Assembly: GCA_964531975.1 (NCBI GenBank)
Contig: CAZHFU010000001.1
Location: forward strand, 139,177 to 203,176
DNA from: an uncultured Anaerolinea sp.
Lineage (GTDB): Bacteria; Chloroflexota; Anaerolineae; Anaerolineales; UBA4823
Direction: 5' to 3'
DNA: 64,000 bases
A model generated the notes under the pieces. It was not told where the DNA came from. It made no database searches and worked only from the letters and a program-made list of their open reading frames with translations. This document shows, in pieces, positions 26,766 to 47,991 of the stretch; position 1 is the stretch's first letter, and each line of letters begins with the position of its first letter. Position numbers and translations under genes: made by a program.

Positions 26766-27146
26766 CTAACCGGCTTCCGCCAGGAAACCTTCGACCCTGG
26801 CCCACAACTCCCGGATATTGATGGGCTTAGACATATACACATCGCACCCGGCAGCTAACGCCTTCTCTGCATCGCCACGCAGCGCGTTGGCCGTCACCGC
26901 AATGATTGGCACATATACCAAACGGCGCTTCCCGCTGTTGCGCAGCCGACGAGCCACTTCATAGCCGTCGATATCGGGCAGGTTAATGTCCAAAAGGATT
27001 ACATCTGGGGCCATAGATTCCGCAATTTCAACGCCGCTCAATCCATCTTGCGCCCAGAGGAATTCATAACCGCGCGCTTCTAAGGCGCGCTTTACGAGGG
27101 TCATGTTATCCGAATTATCTTCTACATATAATATTTTATACGGCAT
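26766..27146 (-). CDS. Single-domain response regulator (CheY-like receiver)
   Basis: Start chosen at ATG 27146 (GGAGGA SD 8 nt upstream). Receiver residues are present: VEDN, LLDINLPDIDG, AVTAN, MSKP. Confidence 0.85.
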   Translation of the reverse strand: MPYKILYVEDNSDNMTLVKRALEARGYEFLWAQDGLSGVEIAESMAPDVILLDINLPDIDGYEVARRLRNSGKRRLVYVPIIAVTANALRGDAEKALAAGCDVYMSKPINIRELWARVEGFLAEAG

Positions 27147-28830: not shown

Positions 28831-28845
28831 AAAAGCCTCCCAGAA

Positions 28846-31800
28846 TTAAACGTGGCTGTTCACCGGCAGCTCCAAAATGAGCGTGGAGCCGCAGCCGGCG
28901 CCTTCGCTTTCAGCCCACAGCCGACCGCCATGCAATTCCACTAATCGACGGCTGATAGGCAGGCCCAAGCCTGTGCCCCCGGCCTTGCGCGTGGTGGTGT
29001 TATCCACCTGGCTAAACGCCTCGAATATATCGTCCAGTTTCTCTTTAGGAATGCCAATCCCGGTATCACGGATGCGCACCTGAATACGATCTTCCAGCAC
29101 TTCCACACCGGTAACGCAGTGTTCCAATTCTATCGTGATTCCGCCCGTTTCGGTAAATTTGATGGCATTGCCCATCAGGTTAATTAGAATCTGGCGGATA
29201 CGTACATGGTCGGCGGCGACTACCCATTCACCGGCGGCATCGGCGTTCAGATGGACATACAAATTTTTATCTCTCGCCAAGGCCGCGCCGCTTTGAATAA
29301 CGTCATCGCACAAATCATACAGGTTAATCGGTTCGGGGCTAAGCGTCAGCCGGCCAGCTTCGATCTTTGCCATGTCTAACACATCATTGATGAGATTGAG
29401 CAGGTGCTTGCCGTTCTTCTCAATCAGGCCTAAATCTCCTTCCATCACATTGGTCAGCGGTCCATCCAGCCCTTCAACGATCACCTGGGTAAAGCCCAAA
29501 ATAGAGTTGAGCGGAGTGCGCAGCTCATGGCTCATGTTCGCCAGGAAGGCAGACTTCATGTTGTCCAATTCTCGCAGCCGCTCTACAGTGGCTAACTGCT
29601 CGGCATATAACTTGGCGTTTTGCAAGGCCACCGCCACTTGCGAGGCCAGCGTGGCGTAAGTACGAATGTCATCTTCCGTAAACCAGTTGACGACTTCGGA
29701 CTGGACATCGAAGACGCCCAACAGCACATTGCCAATCACCATCGGCACGGCCAGTTCCGAGCGTGTCATGGGTAAGAGTTCGTTTTCTAAGAACCCTTCC
29801 GCCTGGCGCACATCTCCAATCAGCTTGCCTTGACGGCTGCGGGCGGCTTGCGCCACAATACTATTGGGCTGGTCGGTGGGGATGGACCAACCTTCGGCCG
29901 TTTCCAACCGCCCCAATTCGCCAGCGCCTACGCTCAGGTTAAGAACAGTGGCGTCTTCGTTCATCAGATAAATGTGGGCGTGGTACAAACCAAAACGAAT
30001 TTGGGTGAGGTCTACCACCTGCTGCAGCAGTTCTTGTGGGTCGAGGATGGTAGCTGTGGCGGTCGAGACCTCCGCCACGGCCTGCAGCTCGACTGCGCTC
30101 TTCTGGGTTTGTTCCATCAGGCGGGCGCGCTCCAGGGCTTGCGCCACCTGTTCAGACACCGCCTGCAAGAAAGCTTCTTCCTCAGAGGTCATCCCCCGAG
30201 AACCATCGGGGCGCACCCCCAACACGCCAATCGTCTCGCCGCGCACCAACAAAGGCGCATCTACCGATGCCACCTGGGCCGACTGCCCGAACAACTCGGC
30301 GTAATCTTCCATGATGGGCGCAACCTGCACCCGGTTATACATGTAACCTTGCACACCGCCCAACTGTGTTTCGTAACTGGCCCATGCTTTGCGGCTCATC
30401 TGGCGCTCTAAGGAAGTAAGTTCCGCCACGCGTTCACGCAGGCTGCCTTGTAGACGTAAACCCTGAACCACAACCGCCGCCTGGCCGATTAGCGCAGTGA
30501 TGCGATTTAGCTCGCCTTCACTGATCCGTATCATATTGGCGGATTGGGCGGCAATTGCGCCGAACCACTCCCCTCCTGCCACCAACGGGAAGAATACAAA
30601 ACTACCCATGCTCAGGGTTTGATTAAATCTCGCGCCCACTTCCGCAGGGATGCGCGCATCGTTCAGCATATCTTGCACCACTAAGGGCGCATCCGGCCGC
30701 GCCGCCGACATCAAAGGAAATTGATTAAGTTGAGAGACCGAACCCGGCCGACTTAGCGGGGGTTTCCCCCCCGGCGTCCAAACCTCCGCGTTTAGCATAT
30801 AGGCCGGCGGTTTGCTCACCCAGGGTTGATCGAATAGCTCCAACGCCACCTGATCCATCTCCTGCAAACGACTGGCGTCTACCACCGCGATCAACACGTC
30901 TCGCAGCGAGTTTGAGCTGACCAGGCGCGCTGAGGCAGTGTATAAGGATTGCGTTTCGGAAAGCGCATCTTGGGTCTGCCTGAATAACCGGGCGCTTTCC
31001 AGAGCTTGTGATAGCTGATCGGAGACCAGGTGGATCATCTGCTTCTGTGCAAATGGAACCGGTTTACCATCTTCCGCTTCAAAGCGCAGCGTGCCAATCG
31101 GTTGGCCGCGCGCCTGCAGCGTTGTAACCACCGCATCTCCTACTCGCGTCGGTTTTGAAGGCCCGTGTTGATGCGATTTAACCCGAATTTCGCCCACTTC
31201 AACGGCAATGCGCCCTCGCATCATCTTGTTCAAATCTTTAACCACCACTTGCACAATCGCTTCTTCATCAAACGTGGCGCGCATGTTGGCGCTCATTTCG
31301 CGGAACGCCTGTTCCTGTGCAGCCCGCTCTTGCGCCAGGCTCAACAATCGGCGCGATTGCAGCGAGGCCGAAACCAGCGAGGCGACCTGTTGGAGCAGCG
31401 CCTGACGGCTTGGGTCAAACTGCGCCAGGCTGGCGCTAACTATATTCAGCACCCCGAAGGCGTCATTGCCCAGGAAAAGGGGCGCGCTCATTAAAGCGTG
31501 CATGCCCAATTTGCTCATCTGAACGCCTTCGACAACACTTTCCAGTTCGCCATCGCCCGGCCAGGTCATCAACCGGCGAGCATTAATCACCGCGCCGGCC
31601 GCGCTGCCCTTCGCTGGAACCGGATCGCCCACAGGAACAAGATTCTTGGCCGCCTCATCCAGCGCCAGCATGTCAAACTGCTGGTTTTTTACATCCAAAA
31701 CACCCAGCGAAGCCATCTCAAATTCAGCCACGCGGGCAGCAAAGCTCACCGCAATGGTCAGCAGCGCCTGCTCGCTGGCGGCCTGGCTCATTTCTGCCGC

Positions 31801-34800
31801 CACCTGGTTCAACGCCGCCAGGTTATCCGCCTGCTGTCGAGTTTGCGCCAGGATCTGCTCGCGCAGGGTCACATCGCGGGCAAAGACCAGCACCCCCCAC
31901 ACCTGCCCGGTTTCGTCTTGCAACGGCGCTCTCAGAACGTTGAAAACGCGCGGCTCATGATCTAATATCACGGGCGCATTGGGGTAGAGCCGCGCTTCCG
32001 CGCCCTCGAACAAGGCTTTGTCGTCGGCGGCGAAACCAGGAATGCCTTTTTCCGCGTCGCCGGTCATCATCGTCTCAGGCAGGCCCAGTTCCAGGTCGTC
32101 TTTGCCAAGGAAGGCCTCCGCCGGCAGGTGCAGCGCATCGGCGTAGCCGCTGTTGACAAGGCTGTAGCGGCCCTGTTGATCTTTAATGTAAATCCAGTCG
32201 GGTGTAGAATTGATGATCGTGCGCAGCAGCCCTTCCTGGGTGGCAAGGGTGGTAGCAGTTTCCCGTAAACGTTCCACTTGCTCAATCAACGCCAGGGCGC
32301 TAGAGGCCTGTCCGGCAATTGCCACCAACAGATCGCGCTCGCGCTCGGTATACATGCCGGGCCGAGAAGTGCTTTGCACCGAGATAACGCCCAAGACCCG
32401 GTCGCCAAAGATGAGCGGCACACCCAGCCATGAGAGCGCCGGTTTAGAATCGCCGAACACCACCGATTCAAGGCCGATGCTGCGCATTCCGGCGGTGACA
32501 TCGTCGCTAAAAAGCAGTGGCTTTTTGGTGCGGATAATGTAATCGGACATACTGGCGCGCAAGCTGCGCGTGGGAAGGTTGAGCGCGCTTTGTCCCCGGT
32601 ATGCAATGGGGAAGGAAACCTGCTGTGTCTCTTCGTTATAGAGCGCAATGAAGAAGCTCTCCGTTTCCATAAACTTTTGGGTGTTCTCATAAATCAGCCG
32701 AAGCGCCTTGTCTACATCTAGCGACGAGGAAATATCAAGGGCCATCTGATTTAATATTTCCACATTGCGCGATTCGGTCTGTATTGTTTGCAACAATTTA
32801 ACCCGCTCGGTCACATCCCGCACATAACCATAAACACCGATAATCTCACCGTTAGGATCACGCAACGGCAGCTTATAAGTATCCAAGAAATGCGTTTCGC
32901 CGTCTATTTCGTGCTCTTCACCATAGAGATACTGCGGTTCGCCGGTCTCCAACACGTGCTGGTCCACCTTCCACGAGCCTTCGATGCCCTTAGTTGGATT
33001 ACCGATCCTTAAACCTTCCGGGAAGCCTAATTGCAAGTCGTTTTTGCCCAGTAAAGCGTCAAGCGGCATACCCATAAACTTCGCAAACGCGTCATTTGCC
33101 AGGGTAAGAACATGATCCCGGTTCTTGACAAAGATCCAGTCGGGGGTCACATCAATGATCGTCCGAATAAAGACCTCAGACTGGCGCATCTCTTCATATT
33201 GACGGGCGTTCTGCAGCGTCACCGCCGCTTGGGCTGCCAAAGTCGTCATGATGTCCACATCTTCTTGCGAGAAATAGGCCAACTGGTCCGACTGAACATC
33301 CATTACGCCGATCAGATGATCGCCCGCTACCAGCGGCGCGGCCAACTCGGAACGTGTTTCCGGCAGCAATTCGTTGGGCAAGAACCCGGCTTCAGCGCGC
33401 ACATCGCTTACCACCTGACCCTGGCGTGTACGGGCTGCCCGCGCCACAATCGAAGTTTCCTTATCCAGGTCAATTTCCCAGCCGGTGGCTGTCATCGCGC
33501 GCCCCACATCTCCGGCCCCGGCCATCAACTTCAGGCGAAGGCCATCGTCCGATAGCAAGTAAATTTGGGCATGGTAAAGGTTTAGCTGCTCTTTGGTTAA
33601 ATCCACCGCGGCTTGCATCAGGTCTTGCACACCCATTGAATTGGCAATCGTGGTGCTAATGCGCGCCACAGCGGCCAACTGAACCGCCTGGCGCGTCATC
33701 GATTCGTACTGCTTAGAATAGGCCACCGCACGCGCGGTTTGTTGTGCAATCGAATACAGCACTTCCAGCTCGGCTTGACCATAGATATTAGCCGCTTTGA
33801 CGCTTTGCAGAGAAATGACCCCCAACACCCGATTGTTATAGGAAATCGGTACACCCACCCAAGAAAGGGGAACTTCGTCATCGCCCAGTGGGACGAAATC
33901 GATTCCCAGCTCTTTCATATGATCGACAACATTCTCACCAAATACCAGTTGGCGACCTGTGCGCAATATGTATTCAGTTAGCCCATTCAACGGAGAGCGA
34001 GTAGGCAAGAAGAACGGGGCGCCATCCACATACACCACGGGATAAGCAATCATATCGGATACTTCGTCGTACATTGCCACGAAGAAATTCTCCGTATCCA
34101 TCAAGCGCCCGGTGAAATGGTATACATGCTCGAGGATCTTGGTTAGATCTAACTCTGAAGAAATAGCGCGTCCCAGCTCATTAAGCGTCGCCAGTTCATG
34201 CAAGTGCCGCTCGGAACGCTCCCCAGCTTTGATCGTATCAATATACCCGCACACGCGAGAGATAATACTGCCCAGCAGCGCGCTTTCCGCATCCACAAAA
34301 TCGCGTGGCTCAGTATAAGCCACGTGGAGCCAACCAACCAGGTTATGCCCCACCCGCAGCCCGCCCACCACCTTCGCAGTTTGTTGCAGCGTGCGCGGAT
34401 CGCCATATATGGCGCCTTCGTATTCAATCGCCGAAATACATACTTCTGAATACTGAAAACCGGAGGGAATGCGTTTGCAAATCCAGCTTAAGAACTCGGG
34501 CAAGGGCGGCTTTTCGTCAATCTGATGGCCGATATCATTGAGGCAGTTGAGTTCACGCACCCGTTTCTCTAGCATATACGCCGTGCGATGCTGATGAGAA
34601 ATATCCTGCGCGATGGTTACAAAACGCAGCGGTTTCTGGTCTGCGTCCATCAGCAGAATAACATTGAGTTCCACCCACACCGCACGACCATCTTTATGTA
34701 CGTAGCGCTTCTCAATGCGGGCCGTCTGGGTCTTCCCTTCCACCATGGCCTTTAACGCTTCCGCGCCGACAGTTTTATCATCCGGATAAGTTAAATCTTG

Positions 34801-35076
34801 AAAATTTTTGCCAACCAACTCATCCTGTGTATACCCCAATAAGCGGGCGAATGCAGCGTTGATATGTAGTAAACGTCCATCTATCCCGGTCAATACCATC
34901 CCAAGCGCGATGGACTCGAAGACGGTCTTGTAGAGGGACTCTGCATCTTGGGAGGTATATGATCGAACCGCCGCGCCTATCGGGTCAAGCAAAGGCGCTG
35001 GCGATTCGCCCTCTTGCTTGGGCGCACCAGAAAAGATTTCATCAAGACGGTTTTTCAGATCGTCATTTTTTGGCAT
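28846..35076 (-). CDS. Giant soluble sensor histidine kinase (PAS, multiple GAF, PAS, GAF, PAS, GAF, half-GAF modules, GAF, HisKA, HATPase_c)
   Basis: 2076 aa with no TM segment seen. H-box MSHELRTPLN, N-box LINLMGNAIKFT, G-boxes DTGIGI and GGTGLGL. There are many GAF and PAS repeats. GGGAG SD upstream of ATG 35076. Confidence 0.9.
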   Translation of the reverse strand: MPKNDDLKNRLDEIFSGAPKQEGESPAPLLDPIGAAVRSYTSQDAESLYKTVFESIALGMVLTGIDGRLLHINAAFARLLGYTQDELVGKNFQDLTYPDDKTVGAEALKAMVEGKTQTARIEKRYVHKDGRAVWVELNVILLMDADQKPLRFVTIAQDISHQHRTAYMLEKRVRELNCLNDIGHQIDEKPPLPEFLSWICKRIPSGFQYSEVCISAIEYEGAIYGDPRTLQQTAKVVGGLRVGHNLVGWLHVAYTEPRDFVDAESALLGSIISRVCGYIDTIKAGERSERHLHELATLNELGRAISSELDLTKILEHVYHFTGRLMDTENFFVAMYDEVSDMIAYPVVYVDGAPFFLPTRSPLNGLTEYILRTGRQLVFGENVVDHMKELGIDFVPLGDDEVPLSWVGVPISYNNRVLGVISLQSVKAANIYGQAELEVLYSIAQQTARAVAYSKQYESMTRQAVQLAAVARISTTIANSMGVQDLMQAAVDLTKEQLNLYHAQIYLLSDDGLRLKLMAGAGDVGRAMTATGWEIDLDKETSIVARAARTRQGQVVSDVRAEAGFLPNELLPETRSELAAPLVAGDHLIGVMDVQSDQLAYFSQEDVDIMTTLAAQAAVTLQNARQYEEMRQSEVFIRTIIDVTPDWIFVKNRDHVLTLANDAFAKFMGMPLDALLGKNDLQLGFPEGLRIGNPTKGIEGSWKVDQHVLETGEPQYLYGEEHEIDGETHFLDTYKLPLRDPNGEIIGVYGYVRDVTERVKLLQTIQTESRNVEILNQMALDISSSLDVDKALRLIYENTQKFMETESFFIALYNEETQQVSFPIAYRGQSALNLPTRSLRASMSDYIIRTKKPLLFSDDVTAGMRSIGLESVVFGDSKPALSWLGVPLIFGDRVLGVISVQSTSRPGMYTERERDLLVAIAGQASSALALIEQVERLRETATTLATQEGLLRTIINSTPDWIYIKDQQGRYSLVNSGYADALHLPAEAFLGKDDLELGLPETMMTGDAEKGIPGFAADDKALFEGAEARLYPNAPVILDHEPRVFNVLRAPLQDETGQVWGVLVFARDVTLREQILAQTRQQADNLAALNQVAAEMSQAASEQALLTIAVSFAARVAEFEMASLGVLDVKNQQFDMLALDEAAKNLVPVGDPVPAKGSAAGAVINARRLMTWPGDGELESVVEGVQMSKLGMHALMSAPLFLGNDAFGVLNIVSASLAQFDPSRQALLQQVASLVSASLQSRRLLSLAQERAAQEQAFREMSANMRATFDEEAIVQVVVKDLNKMMRGRIAVEVGEIRVKSHQHGPSKPTRVGDAVVTTLQARGQPIGTLRFEAEDGKPVPFAQKQMIHLVSDQLSQALESARLFRQTQDALSETQSLYTASARLVSSNSLRDVLIAVVDASRLQEMDQVALELFDQPWVSKPPAYMLNAEVWTPGGKPPLSRPGSVSQLNQFPLMSAARPDAPLVVQDMLNDARIPAEVGARFNQTLSMGSFVFFPLVAGGEWFGAIAAQSANMIRISEGELNRITALIGQAAVVVQGLRLQGSLRERVAELTSLERQMSRKAWASYETQLGGVQGYMYNRVQVAPIMEDYAELFGQSAQVASVDAPLLVRGETIGVLGVRPDGSRGMTSEEEAFLQAVSEQVAQALERARLMEQTQKSAVELQAVAEVSTATATILDPQELLQQVVDLTQIRFGLYHAHIYLMNEDATVLNLSVGAGELGRLETAEGWSIPTDQPNSIVAQAARSRQGKLIGDVRQAEGFLENELLPMTRSELAVPMVIGNVLLGVFDVQSEVVNWFTEDDIRTYATLASQVAVALQNAKLYAEQLATVERLRELDNMKSAFLANMSHELRTPLNSILGFTQVIVEGLDGPLTNVMEGDLGLIEKNGKHLLNLINDVLDMAKIEAGRLTLSPEPINLYDLCDDVIQSGAALARDKNLYVHLNADAAGEWVVAADHVRIRQILINLMGNAIKFTETGGITIELEHCVTGVEVLEDRIQVRIRDTGIGIPKEKLDDIFEAFSQVDNTTTRKAGGTGLGLPISRRLVELHGGRLWAESEGAGCGSTLILELPVNSHV

Positions 35077-35885
35077 AGCATCAGCTCCCGCGCCAGGGCG
35101 CGATATTCGTTCGCGCTTCGGCTTTTGGCGGCGTACAGGTTAATGGGCTTGGCAAACAAAGCGCTCTCTCGCAAACGGGCGTCGAGGGGTATTTGCGTTT
35201 CGAACAGGCAGCCGCTAAATTTCTGTCGATATTGGTCGGCAAACAGGCGGCTCAATCTTGTGCGGCCATCGAACATCGTAATCACCAAACGATGTTCGAT
35301 AGACGGGTTGATATTTTTGCGCAAAATTCCTAACAGGCGCAAATAAGTGTTCAGCGACTGCATTGAAAAATAATCGCAGCCCACCGGAATCAGCGCCAGC
35401 GAACAAGCCGCCAGAGCGTTAATTGTTAGTGGAGCAAAACTAGGCGGACAATCGCACAACACCACATCATAATAAGCAAATTCGCCCACCGCTGCGCCAG
35501 GGGCTTCTAAGGCGCGTTTTAGGCGATATTCATACGCGCTGGCGGTATGGAGCATCTTCTCCACCAGGATGAGACCGCGGTTGGCGGGGGCCACTTCCAG
35601 GTTGTTGATGGGCGTTTCTCGGCTTACATCGGTTAGAGCAGCTTGCATCAACAAAGCGTCGCCAATTGACAGGCGTAAGGTTTCCGGGTTAATGCCTAAA
35701 GCCTGGGTGAGATGCGCCTGGGGGTCAAGATCGATCAGCAGAACCTTGAAACCAAGCTCAGCCAGCGCCGCGCCTAATGAAAGGCAGGTGGTGGTTTTGC
35801 CAACCCCACCCTTTTGACTGCTGACGGCAATCCAGGGCCTGATCCCAGCCGAAGGGGCCGGGTTTATTTCTACCGGCAGGTTCAT
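35055..35885 (-). CDS. Orphan ParA/Soj-family ATPase
   Basis: 276 aa. Deviant Walker A SSQKGGVGKTTT, LLIDLDPQ, Walker B-like VVLCDCPP. No parB nearby. Confidence 0.85.
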   Translation of the reverse strand: MNLPVEINPAPSAGIRPWIAVSSQKGGVGKTTTCLSLGAALAELGFKVLLIDLDPQAHLTQALGINPETLRLSIGDALLMQAALTDVSRETPINNLEVAPANRGLILVEKMLHTASAYEYRLKRALEAPGAAVGEFAYYDVVLCDCPPSFAPLTINALAACSLALIPVGCDYFSMQSLNTYLRLLGILRKNINPSIEHRLVITMFDGRTRLSRLFADQYRQKFSGCLFETQIPLDARLRESALFAKPINLYAAKSRSANEYRALARELMLCQKMTI

Positions 35886-38800
35886 TCGGATTCCCTGTCC
35901 TTCTGGCTGCCCAAGTAAATATATGCGGGCAGACCCATCGCTTTGCCCACCTCTTCTACAGCACGGCGCATAATCGTATTGACATCCGGAGCGTTCACCA
36001 CCTCCGCCGTCACCTGGCGAATGCGCTGTTCGCGCTGCGCTCTGGATTGGGCTTGCTCAAGCAGCAAGCGGCTTTGAACAGCAATCGCCGCCTGGCCTGC
36101 CACAGCTGAAAGGCGGGTTTGTTCGTCCACAGGGAAGTCTACCGGCTTATCGTAAAAACCCTGGATGAACCCAATCATTTGTTTGCCCAACATCAATGGA
36201 AAAACCACCGAGCTGCACCCCATAAACACATCCTGGAACAAAGTGCGGGTCAACCGATCCAGACGTGCATCATTGGCAATGTCCGACATGATGACTGGTT
36301 GTTCGGTAAACAACCCCCCTGGGCGGGCTTCAAAAGCGCTCAGCGGGTAACGTTCGGCCACGTTGAGACCGGGCGCCGCCCGGAAGGCCACCGGGAAAAT
36401 CCATTCGGGGCGATGCTCGGCAGTCAATGGGCGATCAAAAACCGCCATCATCAGCAGCGGCGATGCGCTCCCCAACAAGGTGCGCTCGGCAAGGGTGTGT
36501 AAAATATCCTGGTAACCGCCGGCGGCGTTCATCTCCGCGATCATGCTGTAAAGCGTCTCAGTATCGGCCAGGGCCGCTTGAGTCTGGCTGAATAAGCGAG
36601 CGCTTTCTAACGCCAGCGCCACCTGATCCGACATACCTTGCAGCAAATCCAACTCATCCGGAGATAATGGGTGCTGCCTATCAGCCTGCACCGCCAACGC
36701 GCCAATCACATCCCCACGCAGGGTCAACGGCACGGCCGCCACACCCTGGCCGGGCAGGTTTACAAAGGCGTTGGCTTGCATGGCTTGCCGGCTTTCCTCC
36801 AGCCAACGCCCGTCATCTGGCGCTACCTCGAGCCGGTCATAATAATAGCCGGTTTGCGCTCCCTGGCGCTGGCGCAGCGCCTGCCATCCCTGGCGGCTCA
36901 CGGTGCGATACAAATTATCGATTTCGGCCAGGCGTTCTGCTGTCTCTTGCTGCAAACGCTCGCGGTCGCTAATATCGCGAACAAAGCTCAGTACGCCGGT
37001 CGCCTTACCATCCTCCCCCACCAAAGGAAGCTTTAGCGTGGAAAGGAAGCGCATTTCGCCGCCCACCATAGAGGCCTTCGAATCCATCGATTTTATTGTC
37101 AGAGTACGGGCCACTTCATCGTCTTCTTGCCAGGCGCCCACCAGGCCTTGCTCGGCATCGCCTTTGACCGCCCTTTCATCAAAGCCAAGTTCTAATTCAT
37201 CCTTGTCGATTAAATCCTCTTTATTCAACCCCAAACTTTCGGCAAAACTACGGTTAACCAGTTGGAAGCGGTGGTTCAAATCCTTGATATATATCCAATC
37301 GGGGCTGGCATCAATGATGGTGCGCACCAGTGCTTCGGACTGTTGGGTCTGCTGATACTGCCTGGCGTTCTGATATGCCACGGCAATTTGCGCGGCCAGG
37401 GTGGTCTGGATCGCCACATCCGCTGGGGTGAAACGCCCCGCAGTATCCGATTGAATATCTAACGCGCCCAAGATGGTATCGCCCGCAATGAGCGGTACGA
37501 CCATTTCCGCGGCGGTTTTTTGCAGCAGTTCGTTAGCCATATAATAAGGGTCTTGATCGATCCGATTAGAAATCACGCCCTGACGCAGCCGGATAGCCCG
37601 TGCAGCCAGTGATCTCTCGCTATCGGTATTAATCCGCCAGCCCTGGCTAGATAGGCGCTCACCCACCTGGCCCGCTCCTGCCTTCAATTCCAAAATTCCA
37701 CGGTCGGCATCGAGCAAGTATACCTGCACATAGTAAAAGCCAAACGAGGTTTGAATGCGGTTTACTGCTCGCTGCAGCAAACTGGCCGGGTTGGAGATGG
37801 CATTGATCTCGGCGCTGATTTGGGCTACCTTCGCCAATTCATCCACTTGCTGGGCCAAGGCTTGCTCCGTTTTCTTGGCGCTTTCCATATCAGTAATCAC
37901 ATCGGCAATATAGAGAGGATGCTCCTGAGCGTCTTTAATCAAAAACATGTTTTCAAGGGTTGGGCGAATGCTTCCATCCGGCCTTTGCAGGGCCATTTCC
38001 CCCACCCATTGCCCATCCCGGTATATCGTCGATATAATATCATCGAGCTGCTGACGAAATTGCGGTGGATAATAGGCGCTCGCTTGCGTTTGCTGTTCAG
38101 GATCGAGCGATTCTTTTCCTAACAGGCGAAGCAGAGCGGGGTTGGCGTAGAATAATTCTCCGTCCAAATGCGCCAGGCTCATGCCCTGTCCGGAGCTATC
38201 GGCGAAGCGGCGGAAAACGGATACATCTTGTAATGCTGCTTGTGTATCGGCGTACTGTCGGGCGTTTTCGAAGGCGACGCCAAGCTGGTTAGCCAACGCG
38301 CTCAGCAGGTCCACATCGGTCTGGCTAAGCCCATTAGCCATATCCGACTGAACATCCAACACTCCCACCACGCGCTCGCCCACCATTACCGGCACCGCCG
38401 CCTCGCTGCGTGTTTCAGGCAGAAGCGGATTGGGCAGCCAGCCTCTTTCAGAGCGGGCATCCGCCGCCAAGATGGGTTTTCCGCTATCTGCGGCGCGCCC
38501 CACCAGGCCGCGCCCGCGGGGCACTTTATGCTCAGATTGCAACAGGCTTTGACCCGCCTTGCCCGTGGCCGCCTTAAGCTCCAGGGTCTCCTTGGGGTCA
38601 TCCCACAAGTAAACCTGGGTATGGTAATAACCATACGCCTGCTGCACATCCTCCACCACCGCCGTCGCCAAGTCAATCGGGTTCAAGATGGTGGTCAAGC
38701 GCCGGCTAATTTCTGCGTTGGTTTGTAGGGCGCGGGTGCGCTCTGCCACCCGAACCTCCAAGGACTGGCGCATCTCTTCGAGCTGCTTATTTATCGCCCG

Positions 38801-39436
38801 GCCTTCAGCCAGGCGAGCGCGCTCCACGCGCGCCCGTAGACCCACCCCCACCGCCAGCACCACACCAATAGTCATACTGGTTCCAGCAGCAGTATAGGTT
38901 TCAACTGCGGGCAGCTGCGGGTTTAGGGATGGCAGGGTCAACAAAACGATAGAATTAATTACTACCGCAAGAGAAATAGCCTCCGCCGGCGCAAAAACGC
39001 CGGCAAAAACATAGCCTAAGACGATATATGTGTAAACTACTACCGCCACGCCTGCGTCCGGAATAGGGTTAGACAATAATAGGTTAAAAGTCAGCAAAGA
39101 AAGAGCCGCCATGGAAAGGTAAGCGCCCCACCTGAAATATCTTGTCCGAGAAAGACCGTACAATACCGCTAAGAGGAGAGCCAATAAGACTAATCGTACC
39201 AGGCTGCCCAAAGACCCAAATCCACGGTTTATGATCCCCGAAGCTAACATCCCCACCAAGTCGGCCATCAGCAAGGTCACACTTAAAACGGATAAAGCAA
39301 CGGCCTGGTTGCGCTCCCCTACCTCTACAATATCGGGATGGGGGCGCGTTAATCGGCTAAAGATGGTTTGTATACGCTTGAATACGCCGACGGTTCCGCG
39401 AGATTGAGGATCCATTTCCGGGGTCTTAGGCTGCAT
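35882..39436 (-). CDS. Multi-TM sensor protein (TM bundle, GAF, PAS, GAF, PAS, half-GAF, GAF, truncated-GAF cap) with no output domain seen
   Basis: Start chosen at ATG 39436 (AAGGAG SD 6 nt upstream). The track start GTG 39451 would overlap the upstream gene. The N-terminus has about 6 hydrophobic helices. GAF motif YYHTQVYLWD..NPLLPETRSEAAVP. Confidence 0.85.
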   Translation of the reverse strand: MQPKTPEMDPQSRGTVGVFKRIQTIFSRLTRPHPDIVEVGERNQAVALSVLSVTLLMADLVGMLASGIINRGFGSLGSLVRLVLLALLLAVLYGLSRTRYFRWGAYLSMAALSLLTFNLLLSNPIPDAGVAVVVYTYIVLGYVFAGVFAPAEAISLAVVINSIVLLTLPSLNPQLPAVETYTAAGTSMTIGVVLAVGVGLRARVERARLAEGRAINKQLEEMRQSLEVRVAERTRALQTNAEISRRLTTILNPIDLATAVVEDVQQAYGYYHTQVYLWDDPKETLELKAATGKAGQSLLQSEHKVPRGRGLVGRAADSGKPILAADARSERGWLPNPLLPETRSEAAVPVMVGERVVGVLDVQSDMANGLSQTDVDLLSALANQLGVAFENARQYADTQAALQDVSVFRRFADSSGQGMSLAHLDGELFYANPALLRLLGKESLDPEQQTQASAYYPPQFRQQLDDIISTIYRDGQWVGEMALQRPDGSIRPTLENMFLIKDAQEHPLYIADVITDMESAKKTEQALAQQVDELAKVAQISAEINAISNPASLLQRAVNRIQTSFGFYYVQVYLLDADRGILELKAGAGQVGERLSSQGWRINTDSERSLAARAIRLRQGVISNRIDQDPYYMANELLQKTAAEMVVPLIAGDTILGALDIQSDTAGRFTPADVAIQTTLAAQIAVAYQNARQYQQTQQSEALVRTIIDASPDWIYIKDLNHRFQLVNRSFAESLGLNKEDLIDKDELELGFDERAVKGDAEQGLVGAWQEDDEVARTLTIKSMDSKASMVGGEMRFLSTLKLPLVGEDGKATGVLSFVRDISDRERLQQETAERLAEIDNLYRTVSRQGWQALRQRQGAQTGYYYDRLEVAPDDGRWLEESRQAMQANAFVNLPGQGVAAVPLTLRGDVIGALAVQADRQHPLSPDELDLLQGMSDQVALALESARLFSQTQAALADTETLYSMIAEMNAAGGYQDILHTLAERTLLGSASPLLMMAVFDRPLTAEHRPEWIFPVAFRAAPGLNVAERYPLSAFEARPGGLFTEQPVIMSDIANDARLDRLTRTLFQDVFMGCSSVVFPLMLGKQMIGFIQGFYDKPVDFPVDEQTRLSAVAGQAAIAVQSRLLLEQAQSRAQREQRIRQVTAEVVNAPDVNTIMRRAVEEVGKAMGLPAYIYLGSQKDRESE

Positions 39437-39437
39437 G

Positions 39438-42400
39438 TTATGCTCCTTCACTCACGACATCCGCGGCAGGATGGCTTGAACCATTGTCATCAGGCCGGGG
39501 CTGTAAATCTTCTTCCGAATCTTCGCTTCTCATGCGAACCACCACATTCCGTCCTAAGGCCATTCCCACTTCGCGCGCGGCCAGGCGCAGCACCTGTTCG
39601 GGGTCGGCGGCGCTGCGCACTCGCTCGGCGACCTGGCGCAGCACTTGCTCGTGACGCGCCCGGCGGCGGCTTTCTTCCAGCAAGCTCAAGCCCTGGATGA
39701 CTGCCGCCCCCTGACCAATCAGCGATTCTGCCTGGCGTATCTGGGCCTCGTTTAGCTTACGGGGTTCGGAAGAGCCAAAGGTCATTAAACCAATCCACTG
39801 ATCCGCCACCACTAACGGGAAAGCCACGAGAGAGCGCCCCAGGTTGGCTAACTGGCCGCGCATTGCCGGGTCTAGCCCTTCAAAAACCATGATGTCTTCA
39901 ATAATATGCGGAGCGTCCCGATTAAACAAATTCAAAATAGGCATCGCCCGGATGGGAAGACTTATACCCAACGGAGGCAAGGACGGGTTTTCCGCGTCTT
40001 GCTTGCCGGCAATCACGGTTACAAAATCAGGAGGTTGCTCAGCCCATGGGGCGCTGAACAACATAATCGCGCCCCGTTCAAACTGGCGCAGCGCCGTCGC
40101 TTTCATAACAGCATCCAAGACGCCGTTGGGGGTGTTGGCGCGGACTACATCTTCAGAGCTAGCATATAGGGCATCGGTGACTGCCAAAGCCGAGCGGGTT
40201 TGCTCCGCCAGCCGCAGCGTTTCGATATGTTCGCTCAAACGCTCGGCCACAGCAGCTAACAACGCCCGCTGATCGGAATCCAGATCGTCTCCACCTTCCA
40301 AGCCAATCTCGCCAATCGTTTCGCCGCGCACACTGAGCGGCTGCACGAAAGGAAGGGCTGTCGCAACTTCCTGGGCAGTCACCTGCGTTTGATCGTAGAC
40401 AAAGGCCGGCGTTTCGGGCTGCTCACGCATATAACTCTGCCAACCTTCGCGGATTAAGCGGCGGGCCGCATCTTCAGCCTCCTGGCGATAGCGCTCTGCT
40501 TGCTCCAACAAGCGCAGATTATCGATTTGCCTGGCAACCTGGGCGGTGATATTCTTTACCCACTCCACTTCATCGGGCTGCCAGGGCGCACCCTTACGGA
40601 TCACTTCCAACTCGCCCACCGCTTCTCCTGTAACGATAATGGGCACATTGAGTATCTGCCCGGGGGCGGCTACATCCAAGGGCCTGGAAGCATCCAGGGG
40701 CTGAACGGCGTTATCTTGGAAAATATAACCCTGCGTTTCAGGTCGATTAATGGCATCCAAAAAAGTGTCATAGCTCGCCGCGGTTCGGCGGCGGGCCTGG
40801 CGTTCAACATCTGCGCGGGCTTGCTGAACCTGCGTGAACAAGGCAGCATTCTCCACGGCCACAGCCAACTGCGCCGCCAATGTTTGGAATGCGGGGAGAA
40901 TTTCTCGATTAAATGCTTGTGGGGTCTGACTCTGCAAATCCAACACGCCCACCACGCGGTCGCCCATCATCAACGGAACCGCAGCTTCGGAACGCGTGTC
41001 TGGCAGCAAGACATTCGCCTTAAAATCCGGCGCGCTTAACGTGTCTTCAACCACTCTGGACTGTTTCGAAACGACTGCCGCGCCGTTCAAAGAATCTAGC
41101 CCCACCGGCAAACGATGGCCGCGGCGCAGCAGCTCGCCACCCGTCTCGCCCGATCCCGCCCGCAAAACGAGCGATTTAGAGCGTTCATCCATCAGGTAAA
41201 TTTGCACATAATACAAATCAAAACTCGATTGGATCATCTCCACGGCGGTCTTCAACAGTTCATCCAGGTCGCGCTGTTCCACCAACGAGCGCCCCACATC
41301 GCCCGCCAGCGTCAATTCACGTGTCCGGGCAGCAACGCGCTGCTCCAGGTCTGTCACGTTCCGGCGCAGCTGCTCAGTCATATCGTTAAAGGCTAACCCC
41401 AAGCGACCCACCTCGTCGCGGGAAGCTACATCAGCGCGGGCCGATAAATTCCCGGCGCGCACCTGCTCGGCCGTCTCTGTTAGCCGCTTAATAGGCCGAG
41501 AAATTGCCTGCGCCAGAATTACCGACAAGAAAGACACCACGCCCGATACCACGCCAATCAGGCCAATTTGGCTTTCGGCTTGCGCGGCCACCGGCGCTAA
41601 CGCCTCCTCCGATCGCTGACGCAGAACCAGGAACCAGCCCAGGCGAACAATCTCTGGGTCGTTCCGCAGCGTTGTTACCGGAGAGCGCGCAATAATTGAC
41701 GAGTAACCACCATATTCGGCCTGCGTAAAAGAGGTAGATGGCAGATCGGCTAATACCTGCATCGCCTCAGGATTTGGAAGACTAAACTGACCGTCTATGA
41801 TAGCCCGCGGCGCATCATTCGAGAAATATAGATCGGCATAGGTTTGTTGACCTGGTAAATCGCCGGAAATAACATCGATAATGCCTTGCAAATCGTAGGT
41901 GCTGCGTATCACCCCAAGCACCTCTTGCCCATCATTATCAAACACCGGTACGGCGATAACCATAACGTTCTTGCCCACGCTTGTATCATACGCGGGCTGG
42001 CTGAAATAAATCGACCCTCGGCCTTCCTGATAGGCGTTCCGCCACCAATCTTCGTCCGCCTGGTAATAATCGGTGGTAATGTGGCTGGCGGCAATCAGCG
42101 CCCCATGTTTATCGGTTAATATGGTTTCGGTGTTATAAGGGAAAATATTATCGTACTCTTGGAGATCCAAAGAGATTTGGTTTTGCAAGAACGACGCCAG
42201 CAGCGGGTTATCATCCTCTTGGTTTTGCGCAGCTTGCCGCCATAAAATGTCTGTCTGCTGAATTTGATATGCCACCCCTAGCTTATCCGCATCGTAAGCG
42301 CTGTTCGAGGCGATCAGCGCCTTTTGAATGGATTCACTGATATAAAAGGTTTTTAGCGCGTCCACCTGGGCAGATAGCAGATCGGCCACGGCCTGGGCAC

Positions 42401-43097
42401 GGTTGGCGGCGATGGCCTGGAGACTGTCACCAATGCTGTTGGTCAGGATTTCAGAAGTGCGACGGCCATTGATCCCGCCCAAAAAAACCGAAATTATCAA
42501 CGAAAAGAAGATAAACCCAACCAGCAGCTTACCGGTTAGCTGCATTTCGCGCGTCATCCACACCAGGCTCAGCAAAATTAACGTTAAAATCACCAGGGCG
42601 CCTGCTTGGGTGACGTTATACATGAACGGCGACTGAGCGCGTCCAAAGGGTTGGAAAAAGTTAATCAGACTGCCAATGACCACCACTCCCAAGGCAATGG
42701 AGATCGCGTAGACCAGATAACGATCCGGCAAGGTGAACAGCGCCAGGGTCAAAATAAGCATAAAACCTGCCAGCAAAAAGATGACGCTAACGCGATCAAA
42801 CGCTAAATGTAAACTCACGCCGGCTAACAACAGGCTGCTCAGCACCATAAACATGCTGGCCAAGGCTCGCTCCGGCCTTGCCAGGCGTACGGCCGCCAGG
42901 TTCATGCCAGACGCCACAACCGTTATTGCCACGGCCACCCAAATAACAGGCTGATAGGTGCTGACCAGTGCGTACCCTTGCAGGGCGAGCAATAAAACGC
43001 ATAACGCAATGCTGATAGAAGCCGAGATCCTAACCCGCCTTGGGTTGATCAATCCACTTACCGGCTGGAGATTACTGCTCGAAAGGCTTTGATTCAT
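39438..43097 (-). CDS. Membrane sensor (6 TM, Cache-like, TM, HAMP, GAF, two half-GAF modules, GAF, truncated-GAF cap) with no output domain seen
   Basis: 1219 aa. Cache-like block YYQADEDWWRNAY..VMVIAVPVFDNDGQEVLGVIRSTY and HAMP block SRPIKRLTETAEQVRAGNLSARA..DEVGRLGLAFNDM. Confidence 0.85.
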   Translation of the reverse strand: MNQSLSSSNLQPVSGLINPRRVRISASISIALCVLLLALQGYALVSTYQPVIWVAVAITVVASGMNLAAVRLARPERALASMFMVLSSLLLAGVSLHLAFDRVSVIFLLAGFMLILTLALFTLPDRYLVYAISIALGVVVIGSLINFFQPFGRAQSPFMYNVTQAGALVILTLILLSLVWMTREMQLTGKLLVGFIFFSLIISVFLGGINGRRTSEILTNSIGDSLQAIAANRAQAVADLLSAQVDALKTFYISESIQKALIASNSAYDADKLGVAYQIQQTDILWRQAAQNQEDDNPLLASFLQNQISLDLQEYDNIFPYNTETILTDKHGALIAASHITTDYYQADEDWWRNAYQEGRGSIYFSQPAYDTSVGKNVMVIAVPVFDNDGQEVLGVIRSTYDLQGIIDVISGDLPGQQTYADLYFSNDAPRAIIDGQFSLPNPEAMQVLADLPSTSFTQAEYGGYSSIIARSPVTTLRNDPEIVRLGWFLVLRQRSEEALAPVAAQAESQIGLIGVVSGVVSFLSVILAQAISRPIKRLTETAEQVRAGNLSARADVASRDEVGRLGLAFNDMTEQLRRNVTDLEQRVAARTRELTLAGDVGRSLVEQRDLDELLKTAVEMIQSSFDLYYVQIYLMDERSKSLVLRAGSGETGGELLRRGHRLPVGLDSLNGAAVVSKQSRVVEDTLSAPDFKANVLLPDTRSEAAVPLMMGDRVVGVLDLQSQTPQAFNREILPAFQTLAAQLAVAVENAALFTQVQQARADVERQARRRTAASYDTFLDAINRPETQGYIFQDNAVQPLDASRPLDVAAPGQILNVPIIVTGEAVGELEVIRKGAPWQPDEVEWVKNITAQVARQIDNLRLLEQAERYRQEAEDAARRLIREGWQSYMREQPETPAFVYDQTQVTAQEVATALPFVQPLSVRGETIGEIGLEGGDDLDSDQRALLAAVAERLSEHIETLRLAEQTRSALAVTDALYASSEDVVRANTPNGVLDAVMKATALRQFERGAIMLFSAPWAEQPPDFVTVIAGKQDAENPSLPPLGISLPIRAMPILNLFNRDAPHIIEDIMVFEGLDPAMRGQLANLGRSLVAFPLVVADQWIGLMTFGSSEPRKLNEAQIRQAESLIGQGAAVIQGLSLLEESRRRARHEQVLRQVAERVRSAADPEQVLRLAAREVGMALGRNVVVRMRSEDSEEDLQPRPDDNGSSHPAADVVSEGA

Positions 43098-45532: not shown

Positions 45533-46599
45533 GGCAGATAGACCTTCCCCGCCAGACCAGCAGAGGCTGACGAATTGGGGACCAACCCGGCCAAGGACGG
45601 GGCCGGAAGATATATAGGATCAAATATCTTGCGTAAATCCATTAAGTACGTCAGGCTGCCGGTCGAGATAAGAAAATCCATATTCAACCGGCCCACATCG
45701 AGCAGAGATAGGCCTTGATCCGAAGGAGTTTGTCCAAATAAGATCTGGTTGTCTTCCAGGTTGTAAATATCTACATCACCAAAAGTAACCGCGCTCTGGG
45801 CAATTCCAGCTCTCGCGGCAACCACGCCGCGCGTAAATTGCTGATGCGTTTGGCGATATTCAACCGCTTCAAACCAGGCCCGCAGAAAAGCCTGGATTTT
45901 CTCTGGGTTTCGCTTAGCTACGCTGGAACGAAAGACGATCACATCTGGCAGCAAAGCCGAAACCTCGGTAGCCTGTAGAAGCGCGGCGCCTTTGTCAATC
46001 GCCTGTTTGGTAAATGGCTCATACACGATGCCAGCCTGGATTTGATCGGGTAGCAAGGCAGGAACCTGTTCTACAGGCACATTGACCAAGACGACATCGC
46101 GGGTGGTTAATCCGGCGCGCTGCAAAATGTCACGGATAACCATCTCTCCCGATGAGCCTAGCGCCACACCAATGCGTTTGCCTTTCAAGTCTTGGGCGGT
46201 GGTAATGTCTGGCGCGGTCGCCAGGCTAACCAGGCCGCCCGAATCGTATGCTGCTACGCAATTCATTTCTGTACGACTGGCGGCGTTCATCAAATCGATC
46301 ATGCCTAGCAGGCTGCCATCTAGCTTACCGGAAACCAGGTCGGGGACCACTTCCGAGAAATTTTCATAATAAATTGGCTGCACCTTAACGCCATACTTAT
46401 CGAACAACCCCAGAGCTTGCGCCACCACCAGCGTATAATCGCCCTCCCACAATGTCCACTCTACCCGCAGCGCGTCATCATCGCCGGGTTTACCAGGCGC
46501 AGGGTTTGAAACGGGCGTACAACCAACTGCGCCGACCAACACAGCCGCCGCCAACCCCAGGCGCACCCACTTCACAATCATTACTTGGAAAGCGTTCAT
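45529..46599 (-). CDS. Lipoprotein substrate-binding protein (NMT1/SsuA/NitT-TauT-like) with no cognate permease or ATPase
   Basis: 356 aa. Lipobox VGAVGC and a periplasmic-binding-protein type-2 pattern (KGKRIGVALGSSGE). ATGA overlaps on both sides. Confidence 0.7.
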   Translation of the reverse strand: MNAFQVMIVKWVRLGLAAAVLVGAVGCTPVSNPAPGKPGDDDALRVEWTLWEGDYTLVVAQALGLFDKYGVKVQPIYYENFSEVVPDLVSGKLDGSLLGMIDLMNAASRTEMNCVAAYDSGGLVSLATAPDITTAQDLKGKRIGVALGSSGEMVIRDILQRAGLTTRDVVLVNVPVEQVPALLPDQIQAGIVYEPFTKQAIDKGAALLQATEVSALLPDVIVFRSSVAKRNPEKIQAFLRAWFEAVEYRQTHQQFTRGVVAARAGIAQSAVTFGDVDIYNLEDNQILFGQTPSDQGLSLLDVGRLNMDFLISTGSLTYLMDLRKIFDPIYLPAPSLAGLVPNSSASAGLAGKVYLP

Positions 46600-47903: not shown

Positions 47904-47991
47904 CGCGAATCCTCAGTTTGCACTTTTAGCCAAACCCACCCATTTATTTTCTATCACCAACAACAGCTTGCCTGTAAAGCAGCCATTAATT

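What the first reader, a model, noticed from the sequence alone, without database searches (positions are those of the whole stretch)
35885..36058. All four output-less sensors end in the same truncated-GAF cap
The last 55-80 residues of four different proteins are homologous. Each has a Q/R-rich coiled segment followed by only the first helices and first strand of the locus-typical GAF domain, and then the protein stops. The 1184-aa protein (35885-36058) ends in EQAQSRAQREQRIRQVTAEVVNAPDVNTIMRRAVEEVGKAMGLPAYIYLG. The 1219-aa protein (39441-39677) ends in EESRRRARHEQVLRQVAERVRSAADPEQVLRLAAREVGMALGRNVVVRM. The 812-aa protein (43097-43303) ends in EQAQQRAQRDVRLREIIEQVERTQSVPEALQVAARELGRGLNVARIQARL. 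The 435-aa protein (46599-46766) ends in QRQAEREAQANLVYQKLQTAAGVEEVLQIAAQELGTALSADSARVQIG. The kinase has the same element internally (LAQERAAQEQAFREMSANMRATFDEEAIVQVVVKDLNKMMRGRIAVEVG), where it continues into the remaining half of a GAF-like fold. A fold fragment conserved at four C-termini is unlikely to be decay. I speculate that it is a docking or fold-complementation element that plugs these sensors into each other or into the kinase.
Basis: partly seen in the sequence, partly recalled or inferred. Interest (0 to 1): 0.65.

Follow-up and report, generated by a model that had tools for sequence, protein, structure and literature searches.

The report
Conserved GAF-head stub ending output-less sensors
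Four neighbouring bacterial sensor proteins that lack any enzymatic output all end in the same ~50-residue piece, the first two helices and first strand of a GAF domain; this piece also ends thousands of such sensors in Anaerolineae and has not been described, so it probably links them to the kinases in the same operon.

Summary
All four peptides sit at the stated coordinates. An HMM built only from database homologues of one sensor finds the C-terminal caps of all four (E 1e-20 to 5e-7) and nothing else in the six-frame window.

The cap is not decay. A cap profile hits 6,272 protein clusters. In 64 related loci, 167 of 168 caps are followed by a stop codon within 43 codons.

The cap is a truncated GAF head. 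The profile matches the start of the GAF domain in PDB 6OAP (E 1e-7). In other proteins the same element heads full GAFs (~177 aa) or mini-GAFs (116-153 aa). Pfam and NCBIfam have no model for it, and I found no paper.

Capped sensors lie in a stereotyped Anaerolineae operon with substrate-binding proteins and a soluble kinase rich in 'half-GAF' modules.

AlphaFold2 monomer models show a long helix, a second helix and an unpaired strand-like tail. The cap does not dock in cis onto a half-GAF.

My best reading, which is inferred, is a dimeric helical end-piece that also serves as a docking surface. Trans fold-complementation remains untested and less likely. I class it as a new variant of a known kind, of moderate interest.

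The parts
35906..36058 (-). Cap of sensor A (ORF 35882-39451, 1189/1184 aa): EQAQSRAQREQRIRQVTAEVVNAPDVNTIMRRAVEEVGKAMGLPAYIYLGS, followed by a 7-residue tail and the stop codon
   Evidence: Cap HMM E 5.2e-07. Translation checked. Orthologues P0265-P0285 keep the same terminal cap subtype. AF2 gives helix 277-321, helix 326-341, then coil.
39525..39677 (-). Cap of sensor B (ORF 39438-43097, 1219 aa; dCache-HAMP-GAF, two half-GAFs, a GAF-like domain, then the cap), followed by a 28-residue acidic or low-complexity tail
   Evidence: Cap HMM E 7.8e-09. Translation checked. Pfam architecture.
43154..43303 (-). Cap of sensor C (ORF 43094-45532, 812 aa; dCache-HAMP-GAF-cap), followed by a 19-residue tail
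   Evidence: Cap HMM E 4.2e-11. Translation checked. Pfam architecture.
46623..46772 (-). Cap of sensor D (ORF 46596-47903, 435 aa; MASE11-GAF-cap), followed by an 8-residue tail
   Evidence: Cap HMM E 1.2e-20. 119 of its 120 best homologues end in the same element. AF2 (pLDDT 89.8) gives the GAF C-terminal helix running on through residues 163-207, helix 212-226, then coil.
30970..31338 (-). Kinase residues 1247-1369: a weakly cap-like head (1248-1284) continuing into a short beta-beta-alpha body, which I call a 'mini-GAF'
   Evidence: It is the best cap-profile match within the kinase but it is weak (6.4 bits in context, 13.9 bits alone). The C-terminal part matches the GAF C-terminal half HMM. 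The same head-plus-mini-body arrangement occurs in P0131 and P0134.
36578..36928 (-). Half-GAF ('GYxYD') module of sensor A
   Evidence: Full-length match to the half-GAF HMM, E 1.5e-27. AF2 folds it as a small alpha/beta module of its own, pLDDT 62-80.
40194..40826 (-). Two tandem half-GAF modules of sensor B
   Evidence: Full-length matches to the half-GAF HMM, E 1.3e-27 and 2.3e-25.
30103..30426 (-). Half-GAF module of the 2076-aa kinase (ORF 28846-35076)
   Evidence: Full-length match to the half-GAF HMM, E 1.7e-25.
27136..53044 (-). The operon that holds the capped sensors. Gene order: GAF-HK, OmpR-type RR, RR-RR-GAF-HK, sensor D, NMT1/SsuA-like substrate-binding protein, sensor C, sensor B, sensor A, ParA-like ATPase, giant PAS/GAF histidine kinase, PALP-receiver fusion. 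Most junctions overlap by 4 nt.
   Evidence: ORF coordinates. Pfam and NCBIfam hits. The same layout occurs in L001-L064.

Best explanation
The cap is a conserved, selected, free-standing 'GAF head': the connecting helix, the first core helix and the first strand of a phytochrome-type GAF domain whose body has been lost.

It serves as the obligatory C-terminal end-piece of a very large family of Anaerolineae sensor proteins. These sensors have a membrane or PAS/Cache/HAMP input and one or more GAF modules, but no transmitter domain.

Shown:
- It directly continues the C-terminal helix of the last GAF-type module.
- It is almost always followed by a stop codon within about 5-40 codons.
- In the sample examined it never occurs in the same polypeptide as a histidine-kinase core.
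- It exists in paralogue-specific subtypes that are conserved across genomes.
- It sits in a stereotyped operon next to substrate-binding proteins and a soluble kinase built from GAF and half-GAF modules.

Inferred mechanism:
- As in tandem-GAF and GAF-PHY proteins, the last GAF's C-terminal helix and the head's first helix form one long signalling helix at a parallel dimer interface.
- The second helix folds back on it, giving a helical hairpin, which would be a four-helix bundle in the dimer.
- This gives the last GAF the downstream structure it needs to convert ligand or HAMP signals into helix movements.
- It also presents a conserved, signal-dependent surface, plus a free strand-like tail, through which these co-sensors contact the operon's soluble kinase(s) and modulate their activity.
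For: - Homology and non-randomness: an independent HMM finds all four caps and nothing else in the window.
- Family size and position: the cap profile finds 6,272 clusters at E <= 1e-3 and 1,250 at <= 1e-10. Of 116 single-copy proteins among the best hits, 115 end 2-55 aa after the cap.
- 119 of 120 homologues of sensor D end 6-55 aa after the cap.
- 167 of 168 caps in 64 Chloroflexota loci are followed by a stop codon within 1-43 codons.
- GAF-head identity: PDB profile hits lie at the start of GAF domains, with 6OAP residues 135-181 at E 1e-7. hhalign gives an ungapped 50-column match to linker + first helix + first strand of the locus GAF. 82 internal copies head domains of 116-245 aa, with a mode of 177 aa.
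- Structure: two AF2 models agree on a continuous long helix, a second helix, then coil. Whole-model Foldseek alignments of 217-241 columns are to tandem GAF or GAF-PHY structures (6PU2, 8W26, 1YKD, 3LFV).
- The cap stands where a transmitter would: 281 of 285 terminal caps follow a GAF-type C-terminal helix, and 0 of 285 proteins carry the H-box and G2-box.
- Specific subtypes: caps in one locus share 47% identity at best, against 83% with counterparts in other genomes, and subtypes track gene order.
- Conserved operon with a sensor-less soluble kinase.
Against: - Hairpin packing, four-helix-bundle formation and any docking are therefore inferences.
- The hydrophobic periodicity of the cap's first helix is not significantly heptad-like (P = 0.36), although the segment is polar like other signalling helices.
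- Much of the cap's conservation (ERE, I, L, E) is inherited from ordinary GAF heads, so it does not by itself prove a partner-binding surface.
- No partner has been identified. The ParA-like neighbour in this window is absent from the related loci that were annotated (L001-L003).
Confidence: 0.5

Rival explanations
1. Trans fold-complementation. The head (helix, helix, strand) inserts into an incomplete 'half-GAF' module of another protein, for example the leaderless first half-GAF at the N-terminus of the operon's soluble kinase. This would rebuild a GAF-like fold and physically plug the sensors into the kinase.
For: - In other proteins the cap-like head is joined in cis to a half-GAF or mini-GAF body (P0128, P0126, P0131, P0134, P0177; also the window kinase, residues 1247-1369).
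- The conserved terminal kinase begins with a coiled coil, a low-complexity linker and a half-GAF that lacks its leading helix. Pfam GAF_3 matches it only from profile position 42.
- The cap's strand-like segment stays unpaired in both monomer models.
Against: - AF2 does not place sensor A's cap onto its own half-GAF in cis.
- The half-GAF folds as a self-contained module with its own beta-hairpin (GYYYD/LEVAP).
- Numbers do not match in the common operon: 3 caps against 4-5 half-GAFs.
- Caps also follow complete GAFs in proteins and loci where no headless partner is evident.
Confidence: 0.12
2. A purely structural terminator. The stub only stabilises the end of the last GAF's C-terminal helix and the homodimer, and has no partner-binding role. 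The sensors would signal in some other way, for example through their GAF or membrane parts, or by sequestering a ligand.
For: - The residues most conserved in the cap are those shared with ordinary GAF heads.
- AF2 gives a simple helix-turn-helix.
- No partner was identified.
Against: - Paralogue-specific cap subtypes are conserved across genomes and tied to operon position. That fits specific recognition better than a generic cap.
- The strand-like TxVxL segment is conserved although it is unpaired in the monomer.
- Under this reading, output-less sensors in a conserved kinase operon would still lack a coupling route.
Confidence: 0.25
3. Decay or assembly artefact: the genes are truncated kinases or tandem-GAF proteins cut by a recent stop codon or frameshift.
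For: Distant paralogues continue into HisKA-HATPase (P0288). One locus and one protein show a cap read through in frame into the next sensor (L061, P0254).
Against: - Thousands of clusters stop at the same point.
- Orthologues of sensors A and D keep the cap.
- Tidy 4-nt start/stop overlaps with the downstream genes.
- No GAF body is encoded in any frame after the caps.
Confidence: 0.01
4. A generic coiled-coil or low-complexity tail whose similarity comes from composition (Q/R/E/A-rich).
For: The first ~12 residues are Q/R/E/A-rich. Pfam gives only noise on isolated caps.
Against: - The profile matches extend over all 51 positions, including the non-repetitive second helix and the strand.
- The HMM does not hit other helical linkers in the window.
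- There are specific hits to GAF heads in the PDB.
Confidence: 0.02

Closest known systems
N-terminal segment of phytochrome/cyanobacteriochrome-type GAF domains (PDB 6OAP dual sensor histidine kinase residues 135-181; SyB-Cph1 GAF 2LB5/8W26 residues 11-53; 3OOV; 6BHN)
   Same: Sequence-homologous over connecting helix + first core helix + first strand (E 1e-7 to 7e-2). It shares the ERE...I..(Q/R)KI...(L/V)(D/E)..LQ...(E)(L/V) pattern.
   Different: In those proteins the segment continues into the five remaining strands and helices of a ~150-aa GAF. Here the protein stops 5-40 residues after the first strand, and the motif ELG-ALG replaces EVRxxLxxDRV.
Tandem GAF and GAF-PHY arrays (PDE2A 3IBJ, PDE5A 3LFV, CyaB2 1YKD, bacteriophytochrome photosensory cores 6PU2/6PTX)
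   Same: The AF2 model of GAF + cap aligns over its whole length only to these structures. The last helix of GAF n runs on as one long helix into the first helix of module n+1. From established knowledge, this long helix lies at the dimer interface and carries the signal.
   Different: Module n+1 is reduced to its head, and no enzymatic domain follows.
Signalling helix (S-helix) between sensor and output domains
   Same: A polar helix with an (A)ER(E/T) motif directly after a sensor module. The same proteins have a canonical 'AERTRAL' S-helix between HAMP and GAF.
   Different: An S-helix connects two domains. This element is terminal and includes a second helix and a strand. Heptad periodicity was not significant.
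DHp (HisKA) helical hairpin of histidine kinases, and kinase-modulating sensors such as RetS acting on GacS
   Same: The cap occupies the position after the last GAF that the DHp occupies in the operon's kinases. It is predicted to be a helix-turn-helix. Conceptually, a sensor without its own output could act by contacting a kinase.
   Different: There is no phospho-acceptor His, no HisKA Pfam hit and no PDB DHp hit. The sequence ancestry is a GAF head, not a DHp. The RetS analogy comes from general knowledge and was not tested here.
Terminal capping motifs of repeat proteins (LRR, ankyrin, TPR caps)
   Same: A partial repeat or domain unit conserved at the end of an array of similar modules.
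   Different: GAF arrays are beads on a helical spine rather than a continuous solenoid. This is an analogy only.

Membership tests
GAF domain (Pfam PF01590/PF13185/PF13492) | Sequence homology to a GAF profile or GAF structures | tested here: met
   This holds for the head only. The cap profile hits the first ~45 residues of GAF domains in 6OAP (1e-7), 8W26, 2LB5, 3OOV and 6BHN. hhalign to the locus GAF is in the right register (P 0.004). Pfam's own GAF models do not reach the cap.
GAF domain (Pfam PF01590/PF13185/PF13492) | Complete ~150-aa fold: a six-stranded antiparallel sheet flanked by helices, with a ligand pocket | tested here: not met
   Only ~50 residues are present (two helices and one strand-like segment), then 5-40 variable residues and the stop codon. 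AF2 shows no sheet.
Signalling helix (S-helix) | A ~40-residue parallel coiled coil with a central ERT-like motif that links two signalling domains | tested here: inconclusive
   An AERE motif and a long continuous helix are present. However, the element is terminal rather than a linker, and heptad periodicity is not significant (P 0.36).
Histidine-kinase DHp (HisKA) | A helical hairpin with a conserved phospho-acceptor His (H-box), followed by an HATPase_c domain | tested here: not met
   The four sensors have no HisKA or HATPase_c hit. 0 of 285 capped proteins have the H-box and G2-box. The cap profile finds no DHp in the PDB.
Pseudogene or truncated gene | A stop position not conserved among orthologues, with remains of the lost domain downstream | tested here: not met
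   The stop lies within 1-55 residues after the cap in 167/168, 115/116 and 119/120 cases. The downstream DNA encodes the next operon gene, overlapping by 4 nt.
Split-domain or fold-complementation pair | A partner polypeptide carrying the missing body of the fold, and a specific complex between the two | not testable with these tools
   Candidate bodies (half-GAF modules) exist. Only monomer AF2 was available, and it did not dock the cap onto a half-GAF in cis.

The most novel reading that the evidence does not exclude
The GAF-head stub is one half of a split GAF. Each output-less co-sensor inserts its head (helix, helix, strand) into a headless half-GAF of the operon's soluble histidine kinase, or of another sensor. 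Several membrane sensors would then assemble onto one kinase by domain complementation. This would be a previously undescribed way of wiring multiple inputs into a two-component system.
Probability: 0.12. Interest if true: 0.85.

Novelty: new variant of a known kind. Interest (0 to 1): 0.55.

Why it matters
Sensor proteins with input domains but no recognisable output are a standing puzzle in censuses of bacterial signalling. In Anaerolineae they form a very large family, with thousands of clusters and typically two or three (up to four) per operon.

This analysis shows that these proteins are not fragments. They share a defined, conserved terminal module derived from a GAF head, they never carry a kinase core themselves, and they sit in a stereotyped operon with a sensor-less soluble kinase.

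That gives three practical outcomes:
- A concrete sequence model that could become a new domain family.
- A clear candidate element for coupling the sensors to the kinase.
- Cultured organisms in which to test it. Genome records labelled Anaerolinea thermophila, Brevefilum and Longilinea carry it.

If the cap proves to be the contact point, it would explain how several extracellular inputs (Cache domains, substrate-binding proteins, MASE11) converge on one kinase.

Tried and rejected
- Pfam and NCBIfam scans of the sensors and of 65 isolated caps gave no family for the cap. They returned only noise, including spurious zinc-peptidase hits caused by 'ELGHALG'. There was also a sub-threshold MadS-kinase hit that is driven by the GAF C-terminus.
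- The first genome-contig scan, with sensor D as query, found nothing. A scan with 8 close caps worked.
- Four literature searches found no description of the element. The paper describing 6OAP is not held in the library.
- I considered the ParA-like ATPase as the conserved partner. I rejected this because it is absent from the annotated related loci L001-L003.
- I considered whether caps and half-GAFs balance in number. The window has 4 of each. I rejected this because the common operon has 3 caps against 4-5 half-GAFs.
- I considered cis complementation of sensor A's half-GAF by its own cap. AF2 does not support it.
- Heptad periodicity as evidence for a coiled coil was not significant.
- Cluster look-ups gave no taxonomy for the multi-repeat GAF proteins.
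Full report
**1. The observation**

All genes in the region lie on the minus strand, and most overlap the next gene by 4 nt. The four coordinate ranges in the finding translate exactly to the quoted peptides and run to the last codon of four ORFs:
- Sensor A: 35882-39451. It is 1189 aa from the first GTG and 1184 aa from the next ATG.
- Sensor B: 39438-43097, 1219 aa.
- Sensor C: 43094-45532, 812 aa.
- Sensor D: 46596-47903, 435 aa.

Pfam finds input and GAF/PAS/HAMP modules in all four (MASE11, dCache, HAMP, PAS, GAF) and no output domain.

The tails share only 20-37% pairwise identity, so I tested homology independently. The 120 best database homologues of sensor D have many different N-terminal architectures. 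Nearly all of them end in one ~50-residue element with this consensus, followed by a short variable tail:

QRQAERE..vN.I.QKIQsATSVE.ALQIAARELG.ALG...T.V.L

An HMM of that element contains nothing from sensors A-C. Run against the six-frame translation of the whole window, it scored the C-termini of D, C, B and A at 1.2e-20, 4.2e-11, 7.8e-09 and 5.2e-07. Every other hit had E >= 0.1.

**2. The caps are not decay**

- 119 of those 120 homologues carry the element, ending 6-55 residues before the C-terminus.
- Of 116 single-copy proteins among the best hits, 115 end 2-55 residues after the cap.
- A scan of one genome per species returned 61 loci. All are labelled Chloroflexota and nearly all Anaerolineae, including records labelled Anaerolinea thermophila, Brevefilum fermentans, Longilinea and Villigracilis.
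- In the 64 loci then held, 168 caps were found, typically two or three (up to four) per 12 kb. In 167 of them a stop codon follows within 1-43 codons. The exception, L061, is a cap read through in frame into the next sensor gene.
- Orthologues of sensor A keep its particular cap subtype (...RIREVTAQVFSA.DVDTIMRRAVEQVGR.LG.PAYIYLG), always at the C-terminus.
- Among 285 proteins with a terminal cap, 281 have it directly after a GAF-type C-terminal helix. The preceding module is an NPLLPxT-loop GAF in 139, another GAF-like domain in 112, and a half-GAF in 30. None of the 285 has histidine-kinase H-box and G2-box motifs.

**3. What the cap is**

The cap profile finds the very beginning of GAF domains in solved structures:
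- 6OAP residues 135-181, E 1e-7 (QLHQRIERERVVSQITQKIHQTLDLEEILQTTVTEVRQFLQADRVFV).
- SyB-Cph1 GAF (8W26 and 2LB5), residues 11-53.
- 3OOV and 6BHN.

hhalign of the cap against the locus's own GAF gives an ungapped 50-column alignment onto linker helix + first core helix + first strand. The register is right but the statistics are weak (P 0.004).

In 28 of the best-scoring proteins the element is internal and recurs about every 175 residues. There it is the head of each unit in a tandem-GAF array, as in P0121 and P0127.

Over all session proteins, 82 internal copies head domains of 116-245 residues. The mode is 177 aa, a full GAF, and a few are 116-153 aa 'mini-GAFs'. Examples of a head joined directly to a reduced body are P0128, P0131, P0134, P0177 and P0126.

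Its arrangement, a head plus a beta-beta-alpha body, belongs to this mini-GAF class.

The cap is a GAF head without a body. It resembles phytochrome/cyanobacteriochrome-type heads more than the locus-typical GAF.

Neither Pfam nor NCBIfam models the cap, and four literature searches found no description.

**4. Predicted structure**

AlphaFold2 on sensor D's GAF + cap (38-sequence alignment, pLDDT 89.8) gives a canonical GAF. Its C-terminal helix continues unbroken through the first half of the cap (residues 163-207). A turn follows, then a second helix (212-226), then coil over the strand-like T.V.L segment, where pLDDT falls from 76 to 53.

AlphaFold2 on the last 358 residues of sensor A (pLDDT 78.7) gives the same ending: helix 277-321, helix 326-341, then coil. 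It folds the upstream half-GAF as a small alpha/beta module of its own and does not dock the cap onto it.

Foldseek aligns the whole first model (217-241 columns) only to tandem GAF or GAF-PHY structures such as 6PU2, 8W26, 1YKD and 3LFV. GAF-only structures cover just the domain.

In the alignment, the second helix is amphipathic (P 0.05) and the tail alternates like a strand (P 0.07). The polar first helix shows no significant heptad signal (P 0.36).

**5. Genomic context**

The window's operon, in gene order, is:
1. GAF-HK.
2. OmpR-type response regulator.
3. RR-RR-GAF-HK.
4. Sensor D.
5. SsuA/NMT1-like substrate-binding protein.
6. Sensor C.
7. Sensor B.
8. Sensor A.
9. ParA-like ATPase.
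10. A 2076-aa PAS/GAF histidine kinase.
11. A PALP-receiver fusion.

Related loci show a stereotyped version:
1. RR-GAF-HK of about 800 aa.
2. Substrate-binding protein.
3. Capped sensor of about 770 aa.
4. Capped sensor of about 630 aa.
5. Sometimes a second substrate-binding protein.
6. Capped sensor of about 1000-1200 aa with two half-GAF modules.
7. A kinase with two or three half-GAF modules.

That terminal kinase has no sensor or membrane domain. It has an N-terminal coiled coil, a low-complexity linker, three half-GAFs (the first lacks its leading helix, and Pfam GAF_3 matches it only from profile position 42), a GAF, and HisKA-HATPase.

The ParA-like gene is absent from the annotated related loci L001-L003.

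Caps within one locus are divergent, with a mean best identity of 47%. Each has a close counterpart in other genomes (83%), and the subtypes follow gene order in the operon.

**6. Mechanism**

Shown: the cap is a conserved GAF-head stub. It always continues the last GAF-type helix, stands where a transmitter would stand, and comes in paralogue-specific subtypes inside a conserved sensor-kinase operon.

Inferred: in tandem GAF and GAF-PHY proteins the equivalent long helix lies at the dimer interface and transmits the signal (established knowledge of those families). By analogy, the cap most likely forms a dimeric helical end-piece. This would give the last GAF a functional downstream helix and present a conserved surface, plus a free strand, for contact with the operon's soluble kinase(s).

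- Head-plus-half-body modules exist in cis.
- The first half-GAF of the terminal kinase lacks its leading helix.
- The cap's strand is unpaired in the monomer models.

It also has evidence against it:
- AF2 does not dock the cap in cis.
- Half-GAFs look self-contained.
- The counts do not match.

I put it at about 0.12. Decay and chance similarity are effectively excluded.

**7. Verdict**

- The element is a new variant of a known kind, a domain fragment fixed as a terminal module, and it appears to be undescribed.
- It is of moderate interest because it offers a handle on how very abundant output-less sensors are wired to kinases.

Noticed in passing
window 27136-53044; loci L001-L064: A stereotyped Anaerolineae signalling operon occurs across about 60 genomes: RR-GAF-HK, substrate-binding protein(s), usually three capped output-less sensors, then a soluble half-GAF-rich kinase. 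The window's version has four capped sensors and a giant 2076-aa kinase.
   Followed up: partly
window 36578-36928, 40194-40826, 30103-30426; 225 non-redundant modules in session data: 'Half-GAF' modules of about 100-117 aa (...REGW..Y...GYxYD..V.P...PL.VRGE.IG.L.V...E..LL..V.EQ...A.E..RL). Only their C-terminal half aligns confidently with GAF (hhalign). AF2 folds one as a small independent alpha/beta module.
   Followed up: partly
L030 6172-8076, and the equivalent genes in L012, L033, L036, L042 and L043: The operon's terminal histidine kinase has no membrane or sensor domain. It starts with a short basic segment, a coiled coil and a low-complexity linker, then three half-GAFs. The first half-GAF lacks the usual leading helix.
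   Followed up: partly
window 27136-28761; L002 16468-18186: A fusion of a PLP-dependent enzyme (PALP) to a receiver domain lies immediately downstream of the giant kinase, both in the window and in L002. It may be an enzymatic output of the phosphorelay.
   Followed up: no
window 35055-35885: A ParA/MinD-like ATPase gene is wedged between sensor A and the kinase, with overlapping start and stop codons. It is absent from the related loci that were annotated (L001-L003).
   Followed up: partly
L061 3-2600; protein P0254: These are rare cases where a cap is followed in frame, without a stop codon, by the next membrane sensor. This could be a natural gene fusion or a lost stop. If real, it hints that neighbouring capped sensors act together.
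   Followed up: partly
GAF domains of sensors C and D and of the kinase (for example sensor D residues ~315-330): This GAF subfamily has a nearly invariant loop, WLPNPLLP(D/E)TRSE. Its closest solved folds are free methionine-R-sulfoxide reductases (3MMH), and some sources annotate the proteins that way. By eye I saw no Cys in these GAF sequences, though I did not check this systematically. The ligand is unknown.
   Followed up: no
cap motif ELGHALG (many family members): The motif mimics the HExxH region of zinc metalloproteases. It produces spurious weak hits to Peptidase_M8, Peptidase_M10 and MMP structures, although the first His is missing.
   Followed up: yes
window 53249-54622: An HflX-type GTPase gene sits between two histidine-kinase genes (51704-53044 and 54619-55866), upstream of the sensor operon.
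   Followed up: no
window 39436-39451: The start of sensor A is ambiguous. The GTG at 39451 gives 1189 aa and overlaps sensor B by 14 nt. The ATG at 39436 gives 1184 aa and starts 1 nt after sensor B's stop codon.
   Followed up: no
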